A stretch of 64,000 nt of DNA. It comes from Ostreococcus lucimarinus (Eukaryota). Shown piece after piece: positions 1,982 to 58,575 of the stretch. How positions within the stretch are numbered: position 1 is the first letter of the stretch; each line of letters starts with the position of its first letter. The notes under the pieces are model-generated. The model had not been told where the DNA came from, ran no database searches, and saw nothing but the letters and a program-made list of their open reading frames with translations. Location of the stretch: NCBI GenBank assembly GCA_000092065.1, contig CP000589.1. One strand, given 5' to 3'. A program made the translations under genes and the position numbers.

Positions 1982-2872
1982 ATGACGCTTCGACGCCTCG
2001 TGGCGCGATGCGCGACGACCGCGAGAGCGTCGACGAGCGCCGCGGCGATCGATGCGTCGCGCGCGACGCGAGTGCGACGTCACGAGACGTCGGCGGTGAA
2101 GGATGACGCGGGAAAGTTGCCGGGACAAGTGGACGCGAGGGAAAAGGCAAAGTTTGAAGCGGACGCCGCGCTGTGGTGGAACGAAGGCGAGGGCCCGTTC
2201 GCGGCGCTGCACGCGATGAATCCGGTGCGGGTGCGGTTCATACGGGACGGCCTGGTCGGACAGTACGGCGATGTGCTGGGCGGGAACGGGCCGGGGGCGG
2301 CGCTGCGCGGGTTGAAAATTTTAGACGTCGGCTGCGGGGGGGGGATATTGGCGGAGAGTTTGGCTCGATTGGGAGCGCAAGTGACGGCTATTGATGCGGG
2401 TGCGGCTAACATAGCGATCGCGCGCGCGCACGCGGAGTTGGATCCGGATTTAGTGAAGAATTTGAAGTACGAGGCGGTGACGGCGGAGGAACTCGTCGAA
2501 CGCGGCGAAACGTTTGACTGCGTGACGAGTTTGGAGGTCATCGAGCACGTCACCGATCCGTTGGAGTTCACGAAATCGATTGCGAAATTAGTGAAACCGA
2601 AAGGCGCGTTGTTCGTGAGCACGATCAATCGTACGGCGAGATCGTTCGCGTTCGCCATCTTGGCGGCGGAACGCGTGCTCGGCCTCGTGCCGCCGGGAAC
2701 ACATCAGTTCTCAAAGTTTCTCACCCCTGGAGAGATTGCGATGATGGCGGGTCACGCGAATTGTGAGATGGTCGAGCTCGCGGGGATGGTCTACGACCCG
2801 TTGCGAAACAAATGGTCGTTATCTTCCGACACGCAAATCAACTTCATCGCGCACTGCGTCAAGTCGTCGTGA
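1982..2872 (+). CDS. COQ3: Ubiquinone biosynthesis O-methyltransferase (COQ3/UbiG family), mitochondrial presequence
   Basis: The ORF reads DAALWWNEGEGPFAALHAMNPVRVRF...ILDVGCGGGILAESLARLGAQVTAIDAGAANIAIA...FDCVTSLEVIEHVTDPLEF...KPKGALFVSTINRT. These are the UbiG SAM-binding and C-terminal motifs. The first ATG after the divergent LRR gene is at 1982 (MTLRRLVARCATTARAS, presequence-like). Confidence 0.8.
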   Translation: MTLRRLVARCATTARASTSAAAIDASRATRVRRHETSAVKDDAGKLPGQVDAREKAKFEADAALWWNEGEGPFAALHAMNPVRVRFIRDGLVGQYGDVLGGNGPGAALRGLKILDVGCGGGILAESLARLGAQVTAIDAGAANIAIARAHAELDPDLVKNLKYEAVTAEELVERGETFDCVTSLEVIEHVTDPLEFTKSIAKLVKPKGALFVSTINRTARSFAFAILAAERVLGLVPPGTHQFSKFLTPGEIAMMAGHANCEMVELAGMVYDPLRNKWSLSSDTQINFIAHCVKSS

Positions 2873-21559: not shown

Positions 21560-22828
21560 ATGTTAGCGCAGAAAATGCTCGAGAAAATTCAAGCACACGA
21601 TTTGATGTTACTGGGTGGCGCAGAAACGGAGGCTGCGATGGGTACGGCGAGCGACGTGCAAGGTGAGTTAATTAAATGGAATAAATTGATGAGGAATTAA
21701 ATAATTCATCACGTAGGCGAGCTCAAGGAACTGAAGTCGGAGGACTTGGTAGATCGCATCAACAACTTACAAGGAATTATCTTATCGACATTAAAAAGTG
21801 GCAAGGAGATCGTAGTCGCGAAGCGACCACCAACCGACATGGAGCTTCCTTACAGAACGTACAAATTAGTTTACAACGACGGCACCCCGGTCGAACGAGT
21901 GAACAAAACGGGCTATCAAATGTCACAAGTGCACTACTCGGCGCAAGGAATGCACAAACGCGAAGTATGGGCTGAGATGATGGTGCGAACGACCGCAATT
22001 AATTATTTACAATTAAATTAAATTTGACACAGGACAAGTCTTGCCGATGGCACCAGAGCTCATCTGAGATAGCCGTTCAAGCGTTACAAGTGCCGAAGGA
22101 CGCCAAGAAGCAAGATTTGGATGTCTGCATCACGCCGTCGACCGTCAGAGTGTCATGTCGAAACACTGGACGCACGTACCTAGAGGTGATTTAAATTAAT
22201 TATTTCTCGACACGCAATTATTTACAATTCATTCGCTATCAGGGAGAGTTATTTCGACAAATCATACCAGAAGAGTCTGCGTGGGTTCACCTTGGTACGT
22301 GACAAATTAAATCAATCTTCACTATCGTTTCGCGATCGAAATTAATTATTTTGCTTCAGGCGGAGAGGATGACGACGGTTTCGTGTTGTACCTGAAGAAG
22401 ATGAACCTGGAGCTTTTCAAAGATAAGAACGCCGCGCCCAGTGATAGCTGGTGGGAACGGCTGTTTAATTCTCATGGAGATATTGCATTCGATGACTACG
22501 ATAAGGATTTCACGGATCTACCCACTCCTATCGCTGAGGTGAGTGTGCTTGTTTGTTTGTATCTCCTGTTTGAGCACCGCACTGACCAACTGCATTGCGC
22601 CCGACATAGTCCATCGCAGCCGCCGAAGATGCGTCAAGTGTACTGCAGGCGAGAGAAGAGGAAGAATATAAGGAGCGCGAAGCCGCACGCGAACGTGATG
22701 ACCTCCGAAAGCGCGAGAGACAAGTGCGCCTGGCTGAACTTCGCGGGGGCAAGTATTTGTCGTGGGTTGAGCTCGACAGACGCAATCCCGCGCCGAATCC
22801 TCTGGCACAACGCAGCGAGCCTGCGTAA
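21560..22828 (+). CDS. CS (p23/HSP20-like) domain protein, six exons with five short AT-rich introns
   Basis: Exons placed by eye: 21560-21662, 21717-21982, 22033-22185, 22243-22294, 22360-22538, 22610-22828. Introns are 54, 50, 57, 65 and 71 nt with GTGAGT/GTGCGA/GTGATT/GTACGT/GTGAGT donors and YAG acceptors, and phases are consistent. The spliced product contains a CS-domain signature (CRWHQSSSEIAVQALQVPKDAKKQDLDVCITPSTVRVS...YLEGELFRQIIPEESAWVHLGGEDDDGFVLYLKKMNLELFKDKNAAPSDSWWERLF) and a charged coiled-coil tail. Confidence 0.6.
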
Positions 22829-22983
22829 TTCCAGTATGTTTTCCACGATTTTGCCTCAAAATGACCATAACCAGCGCTTGTCGTGAAAGTTACTAATTTG
22901 TGCTTGAATTCTCGCCCGGTTGAACGAGCCGTCTAGACGTCCACGCGTTTGTCCCGTCGACACACGTCGAACTGTGCGCGAAC

Positions 22984-24128
22984 TCACGCCTTTTTCACTG
23001 TCCATAGCCAACTCCAGTATGTTTTGCTCGGATTTACTCCGTATCTTGCCCGTGGATCCGCCATGATCCGGAGCAATACTTCAACGACCCCCATGTCCTG
23101 TGTCACGAACTTGGGCACCTCAGCCGTGTGCATGAATGTGTGTTCGCGGATGAACACGACGGCCGTCGCGAGCAAAGACAGTAGCATGCATACCGTAGAA
23201 ATTGAGAAAAACATCGAAAGACAAAGCAACATGCTTTTCAAGTCGAAAAGAAGCACCTCTTCACCGAATAGATGACTGCACAACATCGTGTTGAAGCCCA
23301 AAATAGTGGATTGCCAAACCATGCGGTACCCCACAGTCCAGCACCACGCCTTCATGTAGCACCCCTTACAAGACGGACTGATCGTGGCAAATAGAAAATT
23401 ACCGCGATATTTGATGAAATTGTCGAGTTGAACTCGTGCGAGCCTTGGTTTATCGTCTATTTCGCTGGCTTGCATCGCAAGTCTGTGTTCGAGAATCGAG
23501 TCGCCAACGACGGTGTGTAGTATGGGTGGATCTCCCTGCGCGATAGGTGTGAGCGAACGTGTTCAGGGTGAAAAGCGAAAAGTCTTACGTGATAATAACC
23601 ATTATGAGACACGATAGAATGACAGATCGGACACGTTCCAGAGCCCTCTTGTCCTGTGAAAGGACACATCAATTTTGACTCTGCTTTCGTCAGCTCGTCG
23701 GAGTCTTCCAGTAGTGGAGCGGCGTTTTGCCATGGCTTTGTGTCGAAAACGGCACGAATTCCCTCGTATCGACCGGTTTCTAGCAAAACGAAACACGTAA
23801 CGCTAAAAAACATCATAAACGACGACACCAAGAGCGTCCACCATTCTGCAAAGTGTCGTGAGTGTCTCGAGTTTGACTGCGACATGGTCAACTCACCACA
23901 AAAGCTGTACAAGGCCGTGCTCTTTGGAGCCGTTAGGGCCGCCGCTAGGGCTGCAGTTGCGCTGATCGGGACTGAAATCTTGCCTCTCAAGGCATTCATG
24001 ATGCCAAAAGGCTGCATCATCACTTGCATAACGGTCATGGTTGGAGGCAAACTGTGACGTTCTCCCCTCGTTTCCAAAATTGAGACTTGATTAGACTCGT
24101 CTTGAGCGCGTGCGTCATGGGGCGACAA
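22984..24128 (-). CDS. Probable multi-exon gene for a small polytopic membrane protein (exon structure unresolved)
   Basis: Two adjacent minus-strand ORFs (23457..24128 and 22984..23475) in the low-GC island encode hydrophobic helices (WWTLLVSSFMMFFSVTCFVLL; LLCLSMFFSISTVCMLLSLLATAVVF) separated by segments that look intronic. No family recognised. Confidence 0.3.
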
Positions 24129-24241
24129 TTTCGCGCGTGCATCGATTTATCGATTTGTGAGTGAAGTAAATTATTACGGTGTAAGGAGTTGCGATGAAAG
24201 TTCGGGATGATTCTCATCTCACATTCAAACGATCTAAAGTT

Positions 24242-27141
24242 CTACTTTTCCATTTCCTCGACCCACTCCGGGTTCTTCTTTAAGATGACAACTCCCTCTA
24301 AAACAGGAGTCAAAGGAATGTATTTCTCGCTCGCCAGCTCCGCTCGATCGCCAACTGACAGAAGTACGGGAGTGTTATGTGTTTGGAAGCCAGTGATAGT
24401 CTTTGGTCGCCCAGCCTGTCCCACGACGTCAACAGCTTGACCGACTCGAACAGACACTTGCAACGGTTCCCCTTGTTCATCCACAGTCATGAGCATGCGC
24501 GGTTGGGCAGCGACAAACAAATAGTACAGCATGTAGTGATGCTTACCCAAAATCGTATGCTTCATGTCGAGTCCCGCAAAGGCGGTGATGATCAAACCAG
24601 CAAGTGCGACGTTTGACACCAGCGCTCGGTCCGAGTGCGCCGGAGAAAGCGTGAGCAAGCCCTTACCCATATGCACAAGACCCTGTGAGACACGCACGAG
24701 GAACAAACACGACGGCTCCTTGTAGTAGTAACTACTAAGTTGTCGTAGCTGCGAGGCCAAGCGCGCGTTGTTGGTTCCCGCTCCAACAATACCGAGGGCA
24801 AGGCACGCGGACTGCGCGACCTCTTCATTGCTATCGTGACTGAGTCTACCAAGTAAATCCGTGACATCAAGCTTCGGGTTGGAGGTGTGTAACAGCGCAA
24901 ATGCGAGAGGAACGGCTTTCTTTACTGCCGCGTCACCATACTGAATAAGGTGATCGTACGCACGGACCGCCATGTCTGCTCCAAGTTCTTCGCCCATGGC
25001 AACGAGAGCGATGCCCAACACAGCGACACTCTGGGGATCTGCAATCCATTCATCGCCTTCGTCAGCCTCCGGGTGCTCGCCGCACTTCGCCAAAAGAGAC
25101 TGAATTTTCAACACATTACCACTACCGGCGTACGCGCACACGTCCAGCACAGTTTGTAAATATCCGCTGATTCGCGCCGGGAGAGTTTTCGCAACTTCCA
25201 ATGTCGCTTCCACTTCCGCTTGACGCTGTAAGAAAAGTAAACCTAAACCTAGGCACAAAAAGTGCACAAACGTATTGTCGAGTTCTTTCTCAGGCCGCAT
25301 CATCAGCGTTTGGACGATGGTCGACACAGACTCTTCGTGGCACGTGCCGCAGAAGACGAGGCCAAGCGACAGCGCTGCGAAAGCAACGACTTCCAACGGA
25401 GCACTGTCATCGTGAATCACCTCCGTGAGAAGCTCGGAAACTTCTTCTTTTTGAGTACCAGCATATGCCAAACCAAGTCCCATTATCGCACCGATTCTTA
25501 CTGCGGAGTTTTCCTTGGTCACGCTCTCGTACAACAAACCGTAAGCGGGATCGCAATCGTTCCGCACATTAGTGTTGATGAGACCAACGGCAAGCAAGCC
25601 ACCCGCAACGATGTTCGGTTCCTCGCTATAGAGATAAGCATCGACTTGCGGTAGACCGCCTTCAACGTCCCAAAGCAAGATGCTCCCAAGGCTAGCAGCT
25701 GCTGACATTTTACCGTGATCTTTGTTTTTGAAAATCCAGCTCACATTAGATGTGGAACCATCCGCGGCTTCTGAAGAAGTTAAAAGCTTATCTTGTCCGA
25801 AACCGGCGTTCACGAACGCGTTCACGAATGTCGCTGCGAGGTTAGCACGAGCACTATCCACTGCGGCGCCCGAAGGAGCGCGAACTTCCATTAAATGCGA
25901 TTTGTAAATGTCCTCGGGTAACTTCGCCTCCATGACATCCAAGTCACGCGCCAGCATCAAGTAGTTCTTTGTCAAGTCTGAGTGACTCATGATGTTCTGC
26001 AGCATATCCAGGTTATCTTCTTCAACCTCACACGGGCCTTCATCGAGCTTCAACGGATGGCCGTGACGGGCCAACATGTAGCAAAGTTGCTTCTTGATGG
26101 CCAAGTTGGTGCACGCGTTGAACGTCTCTTCGATGATGCTCTGCTCGCAGAGCTTGAGCGCAACTCGCATAGCGTCTGGCATCTTCCCAACCTTCATGAA
26201 AATCGCATGCGCCGTCTTCAACACGATTGCATCTTCTGGCTCAGGAAGATAGTTGGCACAGCTGAACAGGTACAAGCATGTCCTCGAATAGTTGGCGTCG
26301 TTCACGTTGTCGAGCAAAATGTCGAGCTTCTCAACTTCCAATAGTAAATCGACAGCCTCTGGCTCGGCGTTGTGTTGCATGTGAAAAGGAACGATTTCGT
26401 GCACCAAACCCATGAGATCTTCCATCGAAGCCTTGTCCCCATCTTGCTCTATGCGACGATGGTATTCAGTGCCGATCTCTGCGGCGAGATTACGCACATA
26501 CTCGTGTCCCCAGTTCCCGATGTCCTCCTTTGACCCTAATAATCTGTACTTCAACGACTCTGGAATTTCCCCAGCCACCGGAGCGTTGGTCATGGACAAC
26601 AAGGAAATGATATCCGCCAGCAGTAACTTGTTTTCTCCATTCTTCGTTTTGTCGTACACCTCCTTCAAGGTTTGCAAGTGCGGTCTCAAAAACTTTAAAG
26701 GCTTTGGGACCGAAGTCATCGAACTGTTCGCATCGCCGTAAAGTACCGTATCATTTCGTCAGTATCGCGCATATCACTCACTCAATCGTCGCGTGATCCA
26801 CGATCGCGTCGTAATCGTTCATGCGACCTCGTCGCTCTCGCACTCGCGCACCTCGTCGCCGTTCGGATCTCGCGTCTCATCGTTTCAAGCGCCAATTTCG
26901 CCACCCCCGCCTTCGGATCGCTCGCTCGCATCACCATCAGTTCCAAGTTCTCCTTCAGCGCCGCGTCTTCTTCGCTCAACTCCACCTCGTTCTTCTTATC
27001 CTTTCTATTCTTCGTCGTCGATGACTTTCCATCGCCAACGACCCCATCGCCGTTTTTGTCGTCTTTGTCGTCGCCCGCGGCGTTCTTTCCTTTCTTCGCG
27101 CTCGCCGCGGCGACGGCGTCGTTGGGTTTCTTCGTCACCAT
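24242..27141 (-). CDS. RPN1: 26S proteasome regulatory subunit RPN1 (PSMD2), two exons
   Basis: Exon 1 is 26852-27141 (MVTKK...LSEEDAALKENLELMVMRASDPKAGVAKLALETMRREIRTAT), matching the RPN1 N-terminus. A 128-nt intron at 26724-26851 has a GTGCGC donor and AACAG acceptor. Exon 2 is 24242-26723, beginning S-MTSVPKPLKFLRPH as in human PSMD2, followed by PC repeats and a conserved C-terminus. The two ORFs in the track are in different frames, as the intron length predicts. Confidence 0.9.
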
Positions 27142-27395
27142 CGCGTGAGTCGGTTAAAGCGTCGCGTCGGGTGACGACGCGTCGACGAGAGCGGCGATCA
27201 TTTGCTCGCCGATCTTCATAGGCATCCTCAGCTCACCGTCTGCGCTCGTGCCCTGGGCGAGCGCTCGACGACGCGACCTCGCGAGCGCGAAGGGACGCGC
27301 GGATGGCTTTAGAAAACGAAAATCGCGAGCAATAATGTAAAAGAAAACCGACAGATGCTAAGATATCACTAAAAAATGCGTCGCGTTTCGTTCGT

Positions 27396-29444
27396 CTACT
27401 CTACGGAAGCCGCCGCTCGCGCGTCGAGCGTCTTGCGCTTGTGCGAGCTCACCGAGGTGTTCGCCTTCATCAACTCCCGAAGAACCATGGTGGCGTAAGA
27501 AGACGGGGGCAGAGTGAACTTCACCGTTACGGCACGTAAAGGGCCGTCTTCGATGGTGCGTTCGGTGATGCCATTGATGCGATCGAGATCGGTCAAAACC
27601 AAATCCGCCGCCGCGTCCGCGTACGAAATGACGGTGTGCGATACGTTTGTGGGTTTGAGAAAGCATCTACGGTAGTCACCGGTGAATGAGTTGATTGCGA
27701 ATTCACGAACCGAATGCGTCGTAGTATTCAAACTGATTCCATCCTCCGCGGCGAATCGATCGTAAACATCACCCAAATTTGTTGGGTACGTTATCGAGTT
27801 TCCAGGAAGCGGCAGCACCACGAGCGACGAGTCAATCGCACCCAAAGCGGCTTCCTCGGCTGTCACTACGCGAACCCTCGGCATACTCACCCGAGTATCG
27901 CCATTCATATCGTCTTCGCCTTCATCTCCGGCACAGTTTCCCTCTTCGAGCACTAAGTCACCTTCGACGACCGTGTTGACTCCGTACTTACGAATGCGCT
28001 CCGACACGACACGATTAAACAAGTATGCCTGGTAGGCGTGAATGTACATCAGTCTAATCTGCTTCGGCACGGCCAACAGCGATCCGACCAAGTCCGTGGA
28101 GCGAACTTTTGACATGCGCTCGAGCACACAGCGCTCTGCCGCGCACCAGCGTGGCATCAACTTCAAAGTCTCATTGGGATCCTTTGTTTCCATCCATTTC
28201 AAGCGCGCCTTCATGACATCGTCGCGCTCGCCTTCGCGCGGCAGCAGCAAAGCGTCGATCGCAGCTTGCCATTCGCCACGTAAAAGTTCAATTCCAATTT
28301 TATGCGTTGCGTGTTTGCCCCCAGCGCTACCAAATCTCTGCAAACCGTAGTAGTTGATGGTCCCTGAAGACTTGAGTGCGCGCACTGCCTCCTCCACGTT
28401 CCCGACGACGTCTGGGTCGATGCCTCGGAGCGTTATCTCAAACTCGTTCCCGCAATGGTCTCCGAAACCAAGTTGTCTGTCGACATACGTATAGTTACCA
28501 ATTTTACACCCATAAAGTACCAGCTTGGCCAACCTTTTCGCCCGAACTCTGTGCACGGTGACGTGTTGCGTTGTCACTCCGCGCTTGTCCTTCGTTCCGG
28601 CGACGCCAATAGACTTGAAGTTCACCTTCAAGGCCCGGGCTATGACGTTGAGCATCTCGTAAGACTCTTTGTTTTCTTTGCAAAACGCAAATCGCACATG
28701 TTCTGGAACGCCTTCGGGCCAAAAGTTTCCCACCGCTCGATGATCCATTGCCTCCACGCGCGTTCGCTTCTTGCCTTGCTTGACGGCGGCATGCACGCGC
28801 ACGCTCGAAGACGGCTTTTTCAAGTTCTTGAGAGCTTCCTTCTCTTCCTCGTTCGACTCCACGACGTTGTCCGTAGGTAATAAAAAGTGTTTCTTGAAAA
28901 ATTGATGAATTTGCGTCCGTTTCGCTTTATCCGTCGTCGGCTCGAGCACGAGCGGTTGGGGCGTTTCCGCCTTTCCATCGTGCGTCTTCTGACTTCGACG
29001 CGTCACCCCGGGAGTGGCTAAAAATTCTCTCAGTCGCCGCGCGTCCTCTGCACCGCACAGCGCTTCGAATTCTTTCATTGCCTCCTCAATACTCTCTTCT
29101 TTATCCCCCTCCACGTCATCCTTCGCCGCGTCCTCGTCCTCCGCTTCGTCGTCCGGCCCGCGCTCGCGTTCCATGGCTTGCACTTTCGCCTTCATCGCCT
29201 CAAACTTCTTCCGCTCTCGCGCGTCGATCTCTACATCGCACGTCGCGCTCAGTTCATTCAAAACCACCGCCTCACCGCTCTCGATGTCGATCTCCCGCAC
29301 GATGAAATCGCTGTAGCGTTCTTTCAGCACACCATCGAATCCGGCGGCGGCGTTGGCGTAGAGCTCGAGGCCGACGAGTCGCTCCTCCACGTGCTCGATC
29401 GCGTCGTTCTCGCGCCACGATGCCGACGACGGCGCGTGCGACAT
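27396..29444 (-). CDS. PUS7: tRNA pseudouridine synthase, TruD/Pus7 family
   Basis: TruD motifs: YSDFIVREID, catalytic-Asp region GVAGTKDKRGVTTQHVTV, FEITLRG, NYYGLQRFG. 682 aa, typical of eukaryotic Pus7. Confidence 0.8.
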   Translation of the reverse strand: MSHAPSSASWRENDAIEHVEERLVGLELYANAAAGFDGVLKERYSDFIVREIDIESGEAVVLNELSATCDVEIDARERKKFEAMKAKVQAMERERGPDDEAEDEDAAKDDVEGDKEESIEEAMKEFEALCGAEDARRLREFLATPGVTRRSQKTHDGKAETPQPLVLEPTTDKAKRTQIHQFFKKHFLLPTDNVVESNEEEKEALKNLKKPSSSVRVHAAVKQGKKRTRVEAMDHRAVGNFWPEGVPEHVRFAFCKENKESYEMLNVIARALKVNFKSIGVAGTKDKRGVTTQHVTVHRVRAKRLAKLVLYGCKIGNYTYVDRQLGFGDHCGNEFEITLRGIDPDVVGNVEEAVRALKSSGTINYYGLQRFGSAGGKHATHKIGIELLRGEWQAAIDALLLPREGERDDVMKARLKWMETKDPNETLKLMPRWCAAERCVLERMSKVRSTDLVGSLLAVPKQIRLMYIHAYQAYLFNRVVSERIRKYGVNTVVEGDLVLEEGNCAGDEGEDDMNGDTRVSMPRVRVVTAEEAALGAIDSSLVVLPLPGNSITYPTNLGDVYDRFAAEDGISLNTTTHSVREFAINSFTGDYRRCFLKPTNVSHTVISYADAAADLVLTDLDRINGITERTIEDGPLRAVTVKFTLPPSSYATMVLRELMKANTSVSSHKRKTLDARAAASVE

Positions 29445-46995: not shown

Positions 46996-47808
46996 ATGAC
47001 GCGAGCGGCGACGGAAGCGACGACGGAAGCGACGACGACGCCGGACGACTGCGAGGCGAAGAAAGTCGTCGCGGATGCTGCGGAGGTGGATACGAAAATG
47101 GACGCCGAGGCGAACGCGTACGACGACGATGCGCGCGGTGCGGGTGGGAAGATGAGAAAGGACGGTGCCGCGCGCGCCCGAACGGGCGCTCGGATGACGC
47201 CGTACGCGCGACAGCGGCCGGTGATGACGTCTCGGGTGGGAAATCCCGCGGTAAACGCGGACACAAAAGTGTACGTCGGCAATCTTCCGTACGGGTGCTC
47301 GTGGCAGGACTTGAAGGATCACTTCTCGAACGCCATGGGCGGCGAGAGCGTGCGATTCGCCGATATTCTGACTTCGCGCGATGGACGATCGAAAGGATGC
47401 GGCATCGTGACGTTCAATTCGAGCGAAGACGCGAAGAAAGCTATAGAAACGATGCATGACACGGAGATTGGTGAACGAAAAATCTTCGTTCGGGAGGATC
47501 GTGAAGGAGAAAGAGGAAACGACCTTCGAAATCGGATCGGCCCCTCGGCGACGTCCCCGGACGCGTCAGTCTACGTCGGGAACCTTCCTTGGAGCACTCG
47601 ATGGCAGGAGTTGAAAGATATTTTCCGCAAAGTCGGCAATGTCGCGCACGCTGACGTGACGATGGGCTTTGACGGACGATCCAGAGGTTGGGGCGTGGTG
47701 ACGTTTATGGACCCCCAGTGCGCCCAAGTCGCCATCGAAAGGTTGAACGGTACAATGTTGAACGATCGTGCTCTCATCGTCCGCAGGGATGAACGAGCTC
47801 GAAGCTAA
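46996..47808 (+). CDS. RNA-binding protein with two RRM domains
   Basis: RNP-2/RNP-1 motifs twice: KVYVGNLPY ... KGCGIVTF, and SVYVGNLPW ... RGWGVVTF. The upstream part of the ORF (from 46885) is probably 5' leader. Confidence 0.75.
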   Translation: MTRAATEATTEATTTPDDCEAKKVVADAAEVDTKMDAEANAYDDDARGAGGKMRKDGAARARTGARMTPYARQRPVMTSRVGNPAVNADTKVYVGNLPYGCSWQDLKDHFSNAMGGESVRFADILTSRDGRSKGCGIVTFNSSEDAKKAIETMHDTEIGERKIFVREDREGERGNDLRNRIGPSATSPDASVYVGNLPWSTRWQELKDIFRKVGNVAHADVTMGFDGRSRGWGVVTFMDPQCAQVAIERLNGTMLNDRALIVRRDERARS

Positions 47809-55132: not shown

Positions 55133-55545
55133 GAGGAATAATATTTCAAACGAGTAGACACACAAAGCGAGCGAGATGTAGTACAAACAAACCAGCAGTC
55201 CTTGGAAGCGCGCGCGATGTGGCTGCCGCAAAAAAATCGCGGTCGCAAACGCGAAGGTGATGGGCTTAAAAAAATTGTTGTATATCGAACAGAAGTTTCG
55301 ATCTTCTGACCTTTGGGTTATGGGCCCAACGCGCTTCCACTGCGCCAGTTCGATTTCTTCGTCGCCGTATTGCGGGCTACAATATATCCTCGTACAGCCT
55401 AAATTTCAAACAGTACCCACCCCGTCGCCTTCATCGCGTAAAGTTACGGGTTTCTTCCCGAAGTCAACGGCGGGCGACGGACGCGCGTCGTCGTCCGCAC
55501 TCGCCCCCCCGACGTCGCTCGGATCGCGACCGCGCGCGCGCGCCG

Positions 55546-56072: not shown

Positions 56073-56591
56073 ATGGACGACCCGATCGTGTTCTTAGACA
56101 TAGCCATCGGCGCTCGACCGATCGGACGCATCGAGATCGCGCTCGACGTCGCGGCGGCGCCGAAGACGTGCGAAAACTTTCGCGCGCTGTGCGTGGGCGA
56201 ACGCGCGTCGCCGTCGACGCGAAAACCGCTGCACTACGCGTCGAGCGTCGTGCACAGAGTCATCCCGGGATTCATGATTCAGGGCGGGGACTTCACGAAT
56301 CACAACGGCACGGGAGGCGAGTCCATCTACGGGCGAACGTTTCGGGATGAGAACTTCACGCTGAAACACGACGCGCGCGGCGTCGTCTCCATGGCGAACG
56401 CCGGTGCGAACACGAATTCGTCGCAGTTCTTCATCACGCTCGCGGCGACGCCGCATCTCGACGGTAAGCACTGCGCGTTCGGGCGCGTGCTTCGCGGGAT
56501 GGACGTCGTCGACGCCGTCGAAGCCGTCGGTTCGCAGTCGGGCGCGACGTCGGAAGCCGTCGCGGTGACGGACTCGGGACAGCTCAGCTGA
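56073..56591 (+). CDS. Cyclophilin-type peptidyl-prolyl cis-trans isomerase
   Basis: [84 protein letters not shown]. Confidence 0.9.
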
Positions 56592-56721
56592 CGGAATGTT
56601 TGTTTGTATTATACGCGGTAGAGTCATAGAATCACGGCGTCTCGGGACCGATCGAGGACCGATCGTTCGCCTCGCCGTCGTCGCGCGCGCCGCGTCTCGT
56701 CGCGTCACACCCCGGCGGTTC

Positions 56722-57447
56722 ATGCTCGGTGGTGCCCGCGCGTTCGCCCGCTCTCCCGCTCGCGTCGTCGCTCTCACCGCGTCCATCGCCGCGTGCGCCA
56801 CCGTCACCGCGCCTCGCGGTTCGATGACGGCCGCGCGCGCGACGTATTCGGACAAACACACGCGCGTGAGCGCGTCGTTCGGTGACGTCAAGGACATTCG
56901 TTTGAGGCCGCTGCCGAAGCGCGACGACGAAGAATCGTTCGCGGCGTCGGGTTTGTGGAGAGAAAAACCGTGCGTCATCGTGGTGATGCGCAGGCCGGGA
57001 TGAGTGCTGTGCCGTGGGGAAGCCGTGAAGGTGTACGAGAGGAAGCGCGAGTTCGACGCGCTCGGGTGCACGCTGGCGTGCGTCCTCAAGGAAGGCTTAC
57101 CCGCGGAGGTGGAGGAGTTTAAGCGAGACTTTTGGCCGGAACACTTATACTTGGACGAAGATAAGGCGTTCTTTAAGGCTGTGGGGGGTGGGAAACTGAA
57201 GAAAGGGTCGCTGAGTGCGTTTTTGAATCCGTTTTCTCGCATTTGGAAACACGCGGGCGACGCGAAGAAAGCCGGCGTCAAGGAACACAATCTGAACGGC
57301 GAAGGGCTGATCATGGGTGGGATGTTCGTGATGAAGCCCGGTTCACAAGGCGTGCAGTATCAGTTTCAAGAGCGAAATTTCGGCGATCACGCGCCCATCG
57401 AAGACGTGTTGGCGGCGGCCAAGGCGGCGTCTGAGGCGTCGAAGTAA
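56722..57447 (+). CDS. SELENOU: Selenoprotein U (SelU; PRXL2/FAM213 peroxiredoxin-like family) with in-frame TGA (Sec) at 57001-57003
   Basis: ORFs 56596..57003 and 57004..57447 are in the same frame, separated only by TGA. Joined, they read ...LWREKPCVIVVMRRPG-[TGA]-VLCRGEAVKVYE...NLNGEGLIMGGMFVMKPGSQGVQYQFQERNFGDHAPIEDVLAAAK. This aligns with human PRXL2A (...LWEKNGAVIMAVRRPGCFLCREEA......GNLEGEGFILGGVFVVGSGKQGILLEHREKEFGDKVNLLSVLEAAK), with the TGA at the first Cys of the CxxC redox motif. The ATG at 56722 precedes a presequence-like N-terminus. Confidence 0.85.
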
Positions 57448-57657
57448 CGTCGCAACGACGTCACGATTCAACGAGCAAGTGCGCCACCGATTGCGATCGC
57501 GTTTCATCAGGCGTGTGTACGTGACGTGATAAACGTAAAGTCTTTGTGTTTCATCGCAAGGATCGTTTCTTCACCGATTTTCATCGCCGCGCGATCGATT
57601 CGGACGTCGCTTCTCTTTTGTCTCATCATCAATTTGTAAATCTGTGCGTTCATGCAA

Positions 57658-58575
57658 TCACTTGTCTTTTGCCTTCTCCTTGTCATCCGACGACGCGGCT
57701 TTTTGTGTCGTCTGCACGCGCTCTTCCTCCGCCTTTTCGTCCGCTTCCGAAGGCTTGTACACGATGACGGGCTTTTTGCATCGATGCAAACAATAGTTGC
57801 ACACGCTCCCGATGAAAAATTCACGAATGCGGCCTTTTGACGATGAAGCGAGAACGACGGCGACGGCGTCGTCGATGAGCGTGGACTTTTCCACCATGAT
57901 CTCTCCCACGGATGACACATTCGTGTCGTACGGGACGATGTCGATTTTGTACGCGATCGAGGCTTCGTCGAGCAGTGGGACGACGTGTTCGTCCATCCAT
58001 CTGAGCGCTTCGTTTCGCCACGCCGTTTCCTGCGCATCAAATACAACAGTACGTCAATCCTCGGTTCTCATCTCGTCCGATCGACGTAGATGCGAAACAA
58101 CCTGCTCTCGCGCGTGGAACACTTCTCGGCGAAGCATCGGCGATGACTGATAGAGGTATCGCATTGCGGCTCTGCGGACGAACGAACGAACGAAAAAACG
58201 ATGATTAATCACTCGCCTGTTCTTCATCTGGCACGGTGACTGGGTAGAAATCGCCCATCAACGCGCTCACGCTGTCCGAAGCCGGAAAAGTTCTGCGCCA
58301 CACGTCAACGAAACGAACGACGCGAGCGCGAGCGCGCGCGCGACGCCTCGAAACGAAACGCACCCCGGAATCACGTGCACCACCCGGCACTCGTCTCGTT
58401 CGCTCGTCGCGAGATTTTCGATGAACCATCGAACCATTGGAACCGTGGTCTTCGCGCAGTCGACGCCCAAGATCCAAATCTTCCGCGCGCGTCCCGCTCG
58501 ACACGCGCACGCCGCGCCGCACGAGCAATTTTCATCGCAGTCCCCTCCGCACGCGCACGTCGCGCAGTCGCACAT
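57658..58575 (-). CDS. Universal stress protein (UspA) family gene, at least two exons, with metallothionein-like Cys-rich N-terminus
   Basis: 5' exon (ATG at 58575): MCDCATCACGGDCDENCSCGAACACRAGRARKIWILGVDCAKTTVPMVRWFIENLATSERDECRVVHVIPG, where the Usp N-terminal beta-strand/ATP-loop context follows a Cys-rich leader. 3' exon (ends 57658): EALRWMDEHVVPLLDEASIAYKIDIVPYDTNVSSVGEIMVEKSTLIDDAVAVVLASSSKGRIREFFIGSVCNYCLHRCKKPVIVYKP, the Usp C-terminal half with the G-x2-G-x9-G-S motif. Intron boundaries between 57997 and 58340 are not resolved. Confidence 0.55.

What the first reader, a model, noticed from the sequence alone, without database searches (positions are those of the whole stretch)
56722..57447. 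Selenoprotein U gene with in-frame UGA-Sec that the ORF track splits in two
ORFs 56596..57003 and 57004..57447 share one frame and are separated by a single TGA (57001-57003). Across the junction the protein reads MRRPG-U-VLCRGEA. Human PRXL2A/FAM213A has MAVRRPG-C-FLCREEA, so the stop sits exactly on the first Cys of the CxxC motif. The flanks on both sides align with PRXL2A. This is the Sec-for-Cys pattern described for the SelU family in fish, birds and algae. Annotation pipelines typically truncate such genes or call two genes.
Basis: partly seen in the sequence, partly recalled or inferred. Interest (0 to 1): 0.65.

Follow-up and report, generated by a model that had tools for sequence, protein, structure and literature searches.

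The report
Known Ostreococcus selenoprotein U gene

Summary
One TGA (57001-57003) interrupts a continuous reading frame that ends at TAA 57445-57447.

With the TGA read through, the protein matches Pfam AhpC-TSA_2. It also matches the solved PRXL2B structure 9us9, in one alignment that crosses the TGA. The TGA falls on the first, invariant Cys of RRPG-C-xx-C-R in 13 Cys-containing homologues.

Six other lineages, five of them in the same gene order, keep the same TGA. Neighbouring codons change synonymously on both sides of it.

A SECIS element lies 73 nt after the stop codon (57509-57590). It has a GUGA/GA core, a 9-bp helix II interrupted by a small internal loop, a UAAA bulge and a 9-bp mini-stem. 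It is conserved with compensatory changes in an otherwise unalignable 3' UTR. It matches the published Ostreococcus SECIS type. Rfam's models do not detect it.

The window is Ostreococcus lucimarinus CCE9901. Lobanov et al. 2007 (PMC2375036) list one SelU for this species. Their supplementary alignment prints this sequence with U at this position.

Two points remain. Gene callers still split the gene into two "hypothetical proteins". An upstream conserved ATG (56722) may add a targeting peptide that the published model lacks.

The parts
56722..57447 (+). SelU (PRXL2-like) coding sequence in its long form. It is 241 codons including Sec at codon 94, in a single exon, and ends at TAA 57445-57447.
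   Evidence: Continuous frame. Pfam AhpC-TSA_2 and the PDB 9us9 alignment span the TGA. The ATG at this position is kept in all Ostreococcus-like orthologues.
56824..56826 (+). Second in-frame ATG, the start of the published O. lucimarinus SelU model (MTAARATYSDKH...).
   Evidence: Lobanov 2007 Additional file 2. A Met at this position is also kept in the orthologues.
57001..57003 (+). In-frame TGA read as selenocysteine, the first residue of the U-V-L-C redox motif.
   Evidence: It aligns with an invariant Cys in 13 homologues. It is invariant in 7 lineages while flanking codons change synonymously. It is printed as U in the published alignment.
57010..57012 (+). TGC, the second (resolving) Cys of the UxxC motif.
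   Evidence: Invariant column C97 in alignment A6.
57509..57590 (+). SECIS element with a mini-stem (form 2), including helix I (57510-57517 pairs with 57582-57588).
   Evidence: The minimum-free-energy fold gives this shape in all 7 lineages. RNAalifold consensus. In the covariation count 85.8% of cells are paired against 43-53% when partners are slid, and 8 pairs show changes on both sides. A descriptor scan gives 2 hits in the window against 0.2 per shuffle.
57521..57525 (+). 5' side of the SECIS core: G preceding the quartet, then UGA and C (GUGAC).
   Evidence: Invariant in the six Ostreococcus-like lineages; L009 has GUGAA. A G before the quartet is the published hallmark of Ostreococcus SECIS elements.
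57526..57535 (+). Helix II, 5' strand (GUGAUAAACG). It pairs with 57564-57574.
   Evidence: There are compensatory U-A to C-G and G-C to A-U changes among the orthologues.
57536..57539 (+). Unpaired UAAA bulge, the position of the conserved SECIS adenosines. It starts 12 nt after the UGA.
   Evidence: The orthologues have GAGA, UAAG, CAAG or UAAAA at this place.
57540..57563 (+). Long mini-stem (GUCUUUGUG pairs with CGCAAGGAU) with the apical loop UUUCAU.
   Evidence: A long mini-stem is described as typical of Ostreococcus SECIS elements.
57564..57574 (+). Helix II, 3' strand (CGUUUCUUCAC).
57575..57578 (+). 3' side of the SECIS core (C-GA-U). The GA faces the UGA to form the tandem G.A/A.G pairs.
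   Evidence: G68 A69 T70 are invariant in A3. The motif is present as (C/U)GAU in all 7 lineages.

Best explanation
This is the single-exon nuclear gene for selenoprotein U (a PRXL2/AhpC-TSA_2 thioredoxin-fold protein) of Ostreococcus lucimarinus CCE9901.

How it works:
- The mRNA carries an in-frame UGA at 57001-57003.
- A SECIS element with a mini-stem (form 2) lies in the 3' UTR at 57509-57590. Its GUGA/GA kink-turn core begins about 520 nt downstream of the UGA.
- The SECIS recruits the eukaryotic Sec-insertion machinery (SBP2, eEFSec, Sec-tRNA[Ser]Sec). The ribosome then inserts selenocysteine instead of terminating.
- The product is a protein of about 207 aa (start at ATG 56824) or 241 aa (start at ATG 56722). 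Its active site is U-V-L-C at the start of the first helix of the fold.
- The Sec is the attacking redox residue and the Cys three residues later resolves it. The protein therefore most likely acts as a thiol/selenol oxidoreductase, like its Cys-containing relatives PRXL2A and PRXL2B.

Shown here: the frame, the homology across the TGA, conservation of the TGA, purifying selection on both sides, the conserved and covarying SECIS, and identity with the published gene.

Inferred: actual Sec insertion in this protein, the catalytic role, the substrate and the start codon used.
For: - Frame and single TGA.
- Domain: Pfam AhpC-TSA_2, E = 1.2e-17. The phmmer alignment to PDB 9us9 (PRXL2B), E = 9.4e-17, covers residues 73-235, across position 94.
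- Motif: the TGA column is an invariant Cys within RRPGCxxCRxE in 13 Cys homologues.
- Orthologues: five lineages in the same gene order (prefoldin, cyclophilin, this gene, Usp on the minus strand, then a kinase and a Tab2-like gene where the contig reaches that far), plus one more distant lineage, all keep the TGA.
- Selection: against the five Ostreococcus-like lineages, pS is 0.53-0.72 and pN 0.06-0.27 in the 22 codons upstream, and pS 0.46-0.74 and pN 0.06-0.20 in the 60 codons downstream.
- SECIS: a conserved block in an otherwise unalignable 3' UTR. All 7 lineages fold into the same shape. Consensus structure. Covariation: 85.8% of cells paired against 43-53% when slid, 8 pairs with double changes, and 0 of 500 shuffles reach the observed score.
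- Chance: the descriptor gives 2 hits per 128 kb against 0.2 expected. It gives exactly one hit, in the right 3' UTR, in 5 of 6 orthologous loci, including the divergent L009.
- Organism: the neighbouring cyclophilin is identical to O. lucimarinus XP_001419515.1.
- Literature: SelU is listed for O. lucimarinus, and Ostreococcus SECIS elements have a G before the quartet and a long mini-stem. The published alignment shows this sequence with U. Mamiellophyceae encode the complete Sec machinery.
Against: - Rfam 15 covariance models report no SECIS, either in 1.8 kb or in the 111-nt stretch alone.
- SECISearch3 could not be run.
- Helix II of the window's own SECIS has a 1x2 internal loop.
- No expression, ribosome-profiling, 75Se or mass-spectrometry evidence for this particular protein was available.
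- The covariation rests on only 6 related sequences.
Confidence: 0.95

Rival explanations
1. There are two separate genes: an upstream 93-135-aa ORF ending at the TGA, and an independent downstream 147-aa AhpC-TSA_2 gene.
For: Mechanical ORF calling and public gene callers give exactly this split. Pfam's AhpC-TSA_2 model matches the C-terminal half alone.
Against: The downstream ORF starts with GTG. Its first in-frame ATG is 44 codons from the end, which does not fit a eukaryotic nuclear gene. The alignment to PRXL2B and to 13 full-length homologues crosses the junction, and the catalytic CxxC straddles it. The upstream half alone hits no family. Zero spacing and the same frame are kept in 7 lineages.
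Confidence: 0.01
2. It is a pseudogene or a sequencing error: a Cys codon TGC/TGT mutated or misread to TGA.
For: TGA is one substitution away from TGC/TGT. No functional data for this protein were available here.
Against: The TGA is identical in 7 independently assembled lineages down to 47% protein identity. pN is well below pS on both sides. A dedicated conserved 3' UTR structure accompanies it.
Confidence: 0.01
3. The UGA is read through without selenocysteine, by near-cognate decoding as Trp, Cys or Arg. Alternatively it terminates most of the time, so that the full-length Sec protein is a minor product.
For: The efficiency of Sec insertion was not measured. Rfam does not recognise the SECIS. 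Under selenium limitation, termination at UGA is generally common (established knowledge of Sec decoding, not tested here).
Against: The conserved SECIS-type element sits at the expected place. The position is the redox-active Cys/Sec site in a family with known Sec forms in chicken and diatoms. The lineage has complete Sec machinery and 75Se-labelled proteins.
Confidence: 0.03

Closest known systems
O. lucimarinus SelU as published by Lobanov et al. 2007 (Genome Biol 8:R198, PMC2375036, Table 2 and Additional file 2)
   Same: It is the same gene. The printed sequence MTAARATYSDKHTRVSASF.DVKDIRLRPLPKRDD...EESFAASGLWREKPCV.VVMRRPGUVLCRGEAVKVYERKREFDALGCTLACVLKEGLPAEVEEFKRDFWPEHLYLDEDKAFFKAVGGGKLKKGSLSAFLNPFS... 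matches the window apart from a few letters that look like misreads in the machine-read PDF. U is at the TGA. The SECIS type they describe (G before the quartet, long mini-stem, no type I elements in O. lucimarinus) fits 57509-57590.
   Different: Their model starts at ATG 56824. I could not see their SECIS figure, so I cannot confirm that the coordinates are identical.
Vertebrate SelU1 / PRXL2A (FAM213A): Sec in chicken, Cys in human and mouse
   Same: It has the same motif context, AVIMAVRRPG-[U/C]-FLCREEA against CVIVVMRRPG-U-VLCRGEA, with Sec/Cys exchange at the same column. UniRef names the Cys homologues found here 'Peroxiredoxin-like 2A'.
   Different: The vertebrate proteins have a different N-terminal region in the printed alignment. 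The vertebrate SECIS elements were not examined here; the algal one has a G before the UGA. Overall identity was not measured, because no vertebrate PRXL2A sequence was available to the tools.
PRXL2B, prostamide/prostaglandin F synthase (PDB 9us9)
   Same: It is the best solved-structure relative, with E = 9.4e-17 over 163 residues. The CxxC aligns with UxxC (LRRFGCVVCR against MRRPGUVLCR).
   Different: It is a Cys protein. Its prostaglandin-related activity is an animal function, and there is no evidence that the alga shares that substrate.
Plant and green-algal Cys homologues (for example 'Thioredoxin-like protein AAED1, chloroplastic' of Quillaja and 'Peroxiredoxin-like 2A' of Edaphochlamys and Gonium)
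   Same: They are 37-54% identical over the domain, and the motif RRPGCxxCRxE is invariant.
   Different: They have Cys in place of Sec and need no SECIS. Some have long N-terminal extensions.
Rfam SECIS families (metazoan-centred covariance models)
   Same: The general architecture is shared: helix I, a UGA/GA core, helix II, unpaired adenosines and an apical stem.
   Different: No hit up to E = 10, even on 111 nt. This element has a G instead of an A before the UGA and a 9-bp mini-stem.

Membership tests
SelU / PRXL2 family (Pfam PF13911 AhpC-TSA_2) | Match to the family profile above the curated cut-off | tested here: met
   64.7 bits against a gathering score of 27, E = 1.2e-17, profile positions 3-114 of 114.
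SelU / PRXL2 family (Pfam PF13911 AhpC-TSA_2) | Redox motif [C/U]xxC in the context RRPG-x-xxC-R, upstream of the Pfam-covered part | tested here: met
   R90, R91, P92, G93, C94 (the TGA), C97, R98 and E100 are invariant in 14 sequences. The published SelU alignment shows the same column.
SelU / PRXL2 family (Pfam PF13911 AhpC-TSA_2) | One thioredoxin-like domain that needs both halves of the gene | tested here: met
   A single phmmer stretch covers query residues 73-235 and residues 23-182 of the solved PRXL2B chain 9us9_A, E = 9.4e-17. This is by sequence only.
Eukaryotic selenoprotein gene (UGA recoded to Sec) | In-frame UGA aligned with Cys (or Sec) of homologues at a catalytic site | tested here: met
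Eukaryotic selenoprotein gene (UGA recoded to Sec) | UGA and the coding constraint on both sides conserved in orthologues | tested here: met
   7 lineages keep the TGA. Against the five Ostreococcus-like lineages, pS is 0.46-0.74 and pN 0.06-0.27 upstream and downstream.
Eukaryotic selenoprotein gene (UGA recoded to Sec) | SECIS element in the 3' UTR: (A/G)UGA...GA core, helix II of about 9-12 bp, unpaired adenosines 10-13 nt after the UGA, and an apical loop or mini-stem | tested here: met
   Element at 57509-57590, with covariation. The descriptor gives 2 hits against 0.2 expected in the window, and one hit in the right 3' UTR in 5 of 6 orthologous loci. It fits the published Ostreococcus SECIS type.
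Eukaryotic selenoprotein gene (UGA recoded to Sec) | Sec machinery in the genome (tRNA-Sec, SBP2, eEFSec, SecS, SPS, PSTK) | not testable with these tools
   None of it lies in the 64-kb window. The only tRNA is tRNA-Met. The literature reports complete machinery in Mamiellophyceae.
Eukaryotic selenoprotein gene (UGA recoded to Sec) | Selenium actually incorporated into this protein | not testable with these tools
   75Se labelling is reported for O. tauri as a whole, not for SelU specifically.
Rfam SECIS covariance models | Score at or above the gathering threshold | tested here: not met
   No SECIS family is listed up to E = 10 on 1.8 kb or on 111 nt, and none at gathering threshold on the whole window. 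Liang et al. 2019 likewise report that SECISearch3 misses SECIS elements in Mamiellophyceae.

The most novel reading that the evidence does not exclude
The gene may make two isoforms from two conserved in-frame AUGs. A long form would start at 56722 and carry a 34-residue Arg/Ala/Ser/Thr-rich presequence that targets it to the chloroplast or mitochondrion. A short, cytosolic form would start at 56824, as in the published model. One selenoprotein gene would then serve two compartments. Both ATGs are kept in all five Ostreococcus-like lineages although the residues between them diverge. Nothing here tests which start is used.
Probability: 0.25. Interest if true: 0.25.

Novelty: already known. 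Interest (0 to 1): 0.1.

Why it matters
The biology is established. Ostreococcus has one of the largest known eukaryotic selenoproteomes, and SelU was catalogued in it in 2007.

The practical value is for annotation. The gene is still split into two "hypothetical proteins" on hundreds of genome and metagenome contigs. The standard RNA family library does not recognise its SECIS. Selenoproteins of this abundant marine picoalga are therefore systematically mis-called in ocean metagenomes.

The seven aligned SelU SECIS elements collected here could help train a SECIS model for Mamiellophyceae.

Tried and rejected
- Rfam cmscan found no SECIS on 56500-58300, on the whole window or on 57495-57605. 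I treat this as a limit of the models, not as absence.
- The minimum-free-energy fold of the whole 213-nt UTR is not significant on its own (z = -1.07). The signal came from comparison between lineages.
- The first MAFFT alignment of the UTRs put L005 out of register, and a second misplaced L009. I dropped L009 and re-aligned the six Ostreococcus-like sequences to a covariance model.
- Model R1 is specific to SelU orthologues. It finds neither the L009 SECIS nor any other convincing element in the window (best other hit 17.5 bits, E = 0.09, at 47475-47502). It therefore says nothing about other selenoprotein genes.
- The first pN/pS run used wrong TGA coordinates for four loci and is void. It was redone.
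- The first descriptor script had a counting bug and missed the true element. It was fixed.
- Palenik et al. 2007 (PMC1863510) is not held.
- Start at ATG 56596: rejected. It lies 5 nt after the cyclophilin stop codon, and the orthologues have stop codons in that stretch.

Full report
**Observation.** The ORF list shows 56596..57003 (+) and 57004..57447 (+) in one frame. Translating 56596-57447 gives a single uninterrupted frame except for one stop. It reads ...FAASGLWREKPCVIVVMRRPG*VLCRGEAVKVYERK... and ends at TAA 57445-57447. The stop is TGA at 57001-57003, followed by GTG CTG TGC.

**What the protein is.** I read the TGA as Cys for the searches. The 241-aa product starting at ATG 56722 matches Pfam AhpC-TSA_2 (PF13911) at 64.7 bits against a cut-off of 27. 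The N-terminal piece alone matches nothing.

Against all solved structures, the best hit is prostamide/prostaglandin F synthase (PRXL2B, 9us9). The E-value is 9.4e-17, in one alignment from residue 73 to 235. That alignment runs straight across position 94, where LRRFGCVVCR pairs with MRRPG[U]VLCR.

In an alignment with 13 full-length Cys-containing homologues (green algae, a plant, a fungus and metagenomic sequences), the columns R90, R91, P92, G93, C94, C97, R98 and E100 are invariant. The TGA is column C94.

**Is the TGA real and translated?** The closest database proteins all begin at the codon after the stop ((M/V)LCRGEA..., LCRGEA..., VFCRAEI...). This suggests the same split in relatives. 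I fetched the DNA for six other lineages:
- L001-4: 74% identity to the window protein
- L005/6: 68%
- L007/8: 87%
- L010/11: 80%
- L012/13: 66%
- L009: 47%

The first five lie in the same gene order as the window, as far as each contig reaches: prefoldin, cyclophilin, this gene and Usp on the opposite strand in all five, an amino-acid kinase upstream in three, and a protein kinase and a Tab2-like gene downstream where the contig extends that far. Every one has an in-frame TGA at the same codon, with conserved protein sequence before and after it.

The neighbouring codons vary synonymously, for example CGC AGG CCG GGA TGA, CGT CGA CCC GGA TGA and AGA CGG CCT GGA TGA. Against the five Ostreococcus-like lineages, the proportions of differences per site are:

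| Region | pS (synonymous) | pN (non-synonymous) |
|---|---|---|
| 22 codons upstream of the TGA | 0.53-0.72 | 0.06-0.27 |
| 60 codons downstream of the TGA | 0.46-0.74 | 0.06-0.20 |

One search used wrong coordinates and is void. Purifying selection therefore acts in one frame on both sides of a stop codon that never changes. This excludes a sequencing error, a pseudogene and two unrelated genes. In addition, the downstream ORF has no ATG until 44 codons before its end.

**The SECIS element.** Rfam found nothing. However, aligning the four 3' UTRs then in hand showed one conserved block in otherwise unalignable sequence. In the window it reads:

5' GUGAC [GUGAUAAACG] UAAA [GUCUUUGUG UUUCAU CGCAAGGAU] [CGUUUCUUCAC] CGAU 3'

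This stretch is 57521-57578. Flanking helix I extends the element to 57509-57590. It has the anatomy of a form-2 SECIS:
- a UGA/GA core that can form the tandem G.A/A.G pairs
- a helix II of 9 bp, interrupted by a 1x2 internal loop
- an unpaired A-rich bulge starting 12 nt after the UGA
- a mini-stem

Each of the seven lineages folds into this shape on its own, and RNAalifold returns it as the consensus. After re-alignment to a covariance model, 85.8% of cells are paired, against 43-53% when partners are slid by 1-3 columns. Eight of 20 pairs show changes on both sides. Examples in helix II are U-A to C-G and G-C to A-U. None of 500 shuffles reaches the observed covariation score. With only six related sequences this is supportive rather than conclusive.

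I also wrote a sequence-independent descriptor: RUGA, at least 9 bp of helix II, a bulge with at least two A, a mini-stem of at least 5 bp, then NGA. It finds two sites in the 128 kb of both strands, against 0.2 per dinucleotide shuffle. One is this element. The other (2453-2536) lies inside a 355-aa ORF and is taken as chance. In the orthologous loci the descriptor gives exactly one hit each in five of six. Each hit is in the 3' UTR, 54-85 nt after the stop. This includes L009, whose element shares only the core with the others. The L010 element is missed by the descriptor but scores 80.7 bits with the model.

**Organism and prior knowledge.** The neighbouring cyclophilin (56073-56591) is identical to XP_001419515.1 of Ostreococcus lucimarinus CCE9901. 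Lobanov et al. 2007 (PMC2375036) report 29 selenoprotein genes in this species, including one SelU (Table 2). They state that Ostreococcus SECIS elements characteristically have an unpaired G before the quartet and a long mini-stem, and that no type I elements occur in O. lucimarinus. The element found here fits that description.

Their Additional file 2 prints the O. lucimarinus SelU as MTAARATYSDKHTRVSASF.DVKDIRLRPLPKRDD / EESFAASGLWREKPCV.VVMRRPGUVLCRGEAVKVYERKREFDALGCTLACVLKEG / LPAEVEEFKRDFWPEHLYLDEDKAFFKAVGGGKLKKGSLSAFLNPFS... This is the present gene with U at the TGA. It is aligned with chicken SelU (RRPGUFLCREEA) and human PRXL2A (RRPGCFLCREEA). Liang et al. 2019 (PMC6627142) report complete Sec machinery in Mamiellophyceae. 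They also note that SECISearch3 misses some SECIS elements in that group, which is in line with the Rfam miss.

**Mechanism.** Shown: the gene structure, the recoding signals and their conservation. Inferred from the established eukaryotic Sec pathway: the SECIS binds SBP2, which brings eEFSec and Sec-tRNA to the UGA about 520 nt upstream, so that Sec is inserted. Inferred from the family: the U-x-x-C pair forms a selenenylsulfide redox centre in a thioredoxin-like fold. The natural substrate in the alga is unknown.

**Open detail.** Both ATGs are kept in all five Ostreococcus-like lineages. The 34 residues between them (MLGGARAFARSPARVVALTASIAACATVTAPRGS) lack acidic residues and look like a transit peptide. 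A plant homologue is named 'chloroplastic' by its source. Which start is used, or whether both are, was not testable here. The ATG at 56596 is rejected, because it lies 5 nt after the cyclophilin stop and the orthologues have stops in that stretch.

**Verdict.** The finding is a correct rediscovery of a published selenoprotein gene, so novelty is 'already known' and interest is low. What remains useful is practical. Both halves circulate as separate 'hypothetical proteins' on hundreds of contigs, and the standard RNA library does not see this lineage's SECIS type.

Noticed in passing
window 56722-56826: Two in-frame ATGs (56722 and 56824) are both conserved in all Ostreococcus-like orthologues, while the 34 residues between them diverge. 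Those residues are Arg/Ala/Ser/Thr-rich with no acidic residue, like a transit peptide. The published model uses the second ATG. Alternative starts giving two isoforms are possible.
   Followed up: partly
window 55283-55354 (-): A tRNA-Met gene (anticodon CAT) lies between the glutamate-5-kinase-like gene and the prefoldin gene. It is the only tRNA in the 64 kb, and no tRNA-Sec is present.
   Followed up: no
window 2453-2536 (+): This is the second match to my SECIS descriptor (GTGAAGAATTTGAAG...GAG). It lies inside a 355-aa ORF (1805-2872) and is most likely a chance match.
   Followed up: partly
window 22001-28000: G+C drops to 0.49-0.54 here, against 0.62-0.68 in several other parts of the window (for example 2-4 kb, 32-36 kb and 40-42 kb). 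The cause was not examined.
   Followed up: no
window 57448-57657, with the Usp-like ORF 57658-57996 (-): The SelU gene and a universal-stress-protein-like gene converge, with only 210 nt between their stop codons. The SECIS occupies 82 nt of that space, so the two 3' UTRs probably overlap. The SelU/Usp pairing is kept in all the orthologous loci, including the distant L009.
   Followed up: partly
public protein collections (clusters of P0010 and P0001/P0055): The two halves of this selenoprotein are stored as separate 'hypothetical proteins'. The clusters have 15 and 108 members, and single members are seen on up to 361 contigs. This is a systematic mis-annotation in marine metagenomes.
   Followed up: partly
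window 57495-57605: Rfam release 15 reports no SECIS family for this element, even when only 111 nt are searched with permissive filters. The GUGA, long-mini-stem SECIS type of Mamiellophyceae appears not to be covered.
   Followed up: yes
P0004 (ENA contig of 1031 bp): This 159-aa protein has its last 113 residues identical to the window's SelU C-terminus, but its N-terminus is unrelated. It is probably an assembly or frame artefact.
   Followed up: no
P0011, P0012, P0016 (Cys homologues from metagenomes): These Cys-containing relatives carry an extra Arg/Ser/His-rich insert of about 25 residues after ...NPFSRIW that the other homologues lack. It may be an unspliced intron translated by the gene caller.
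   Followed up: no
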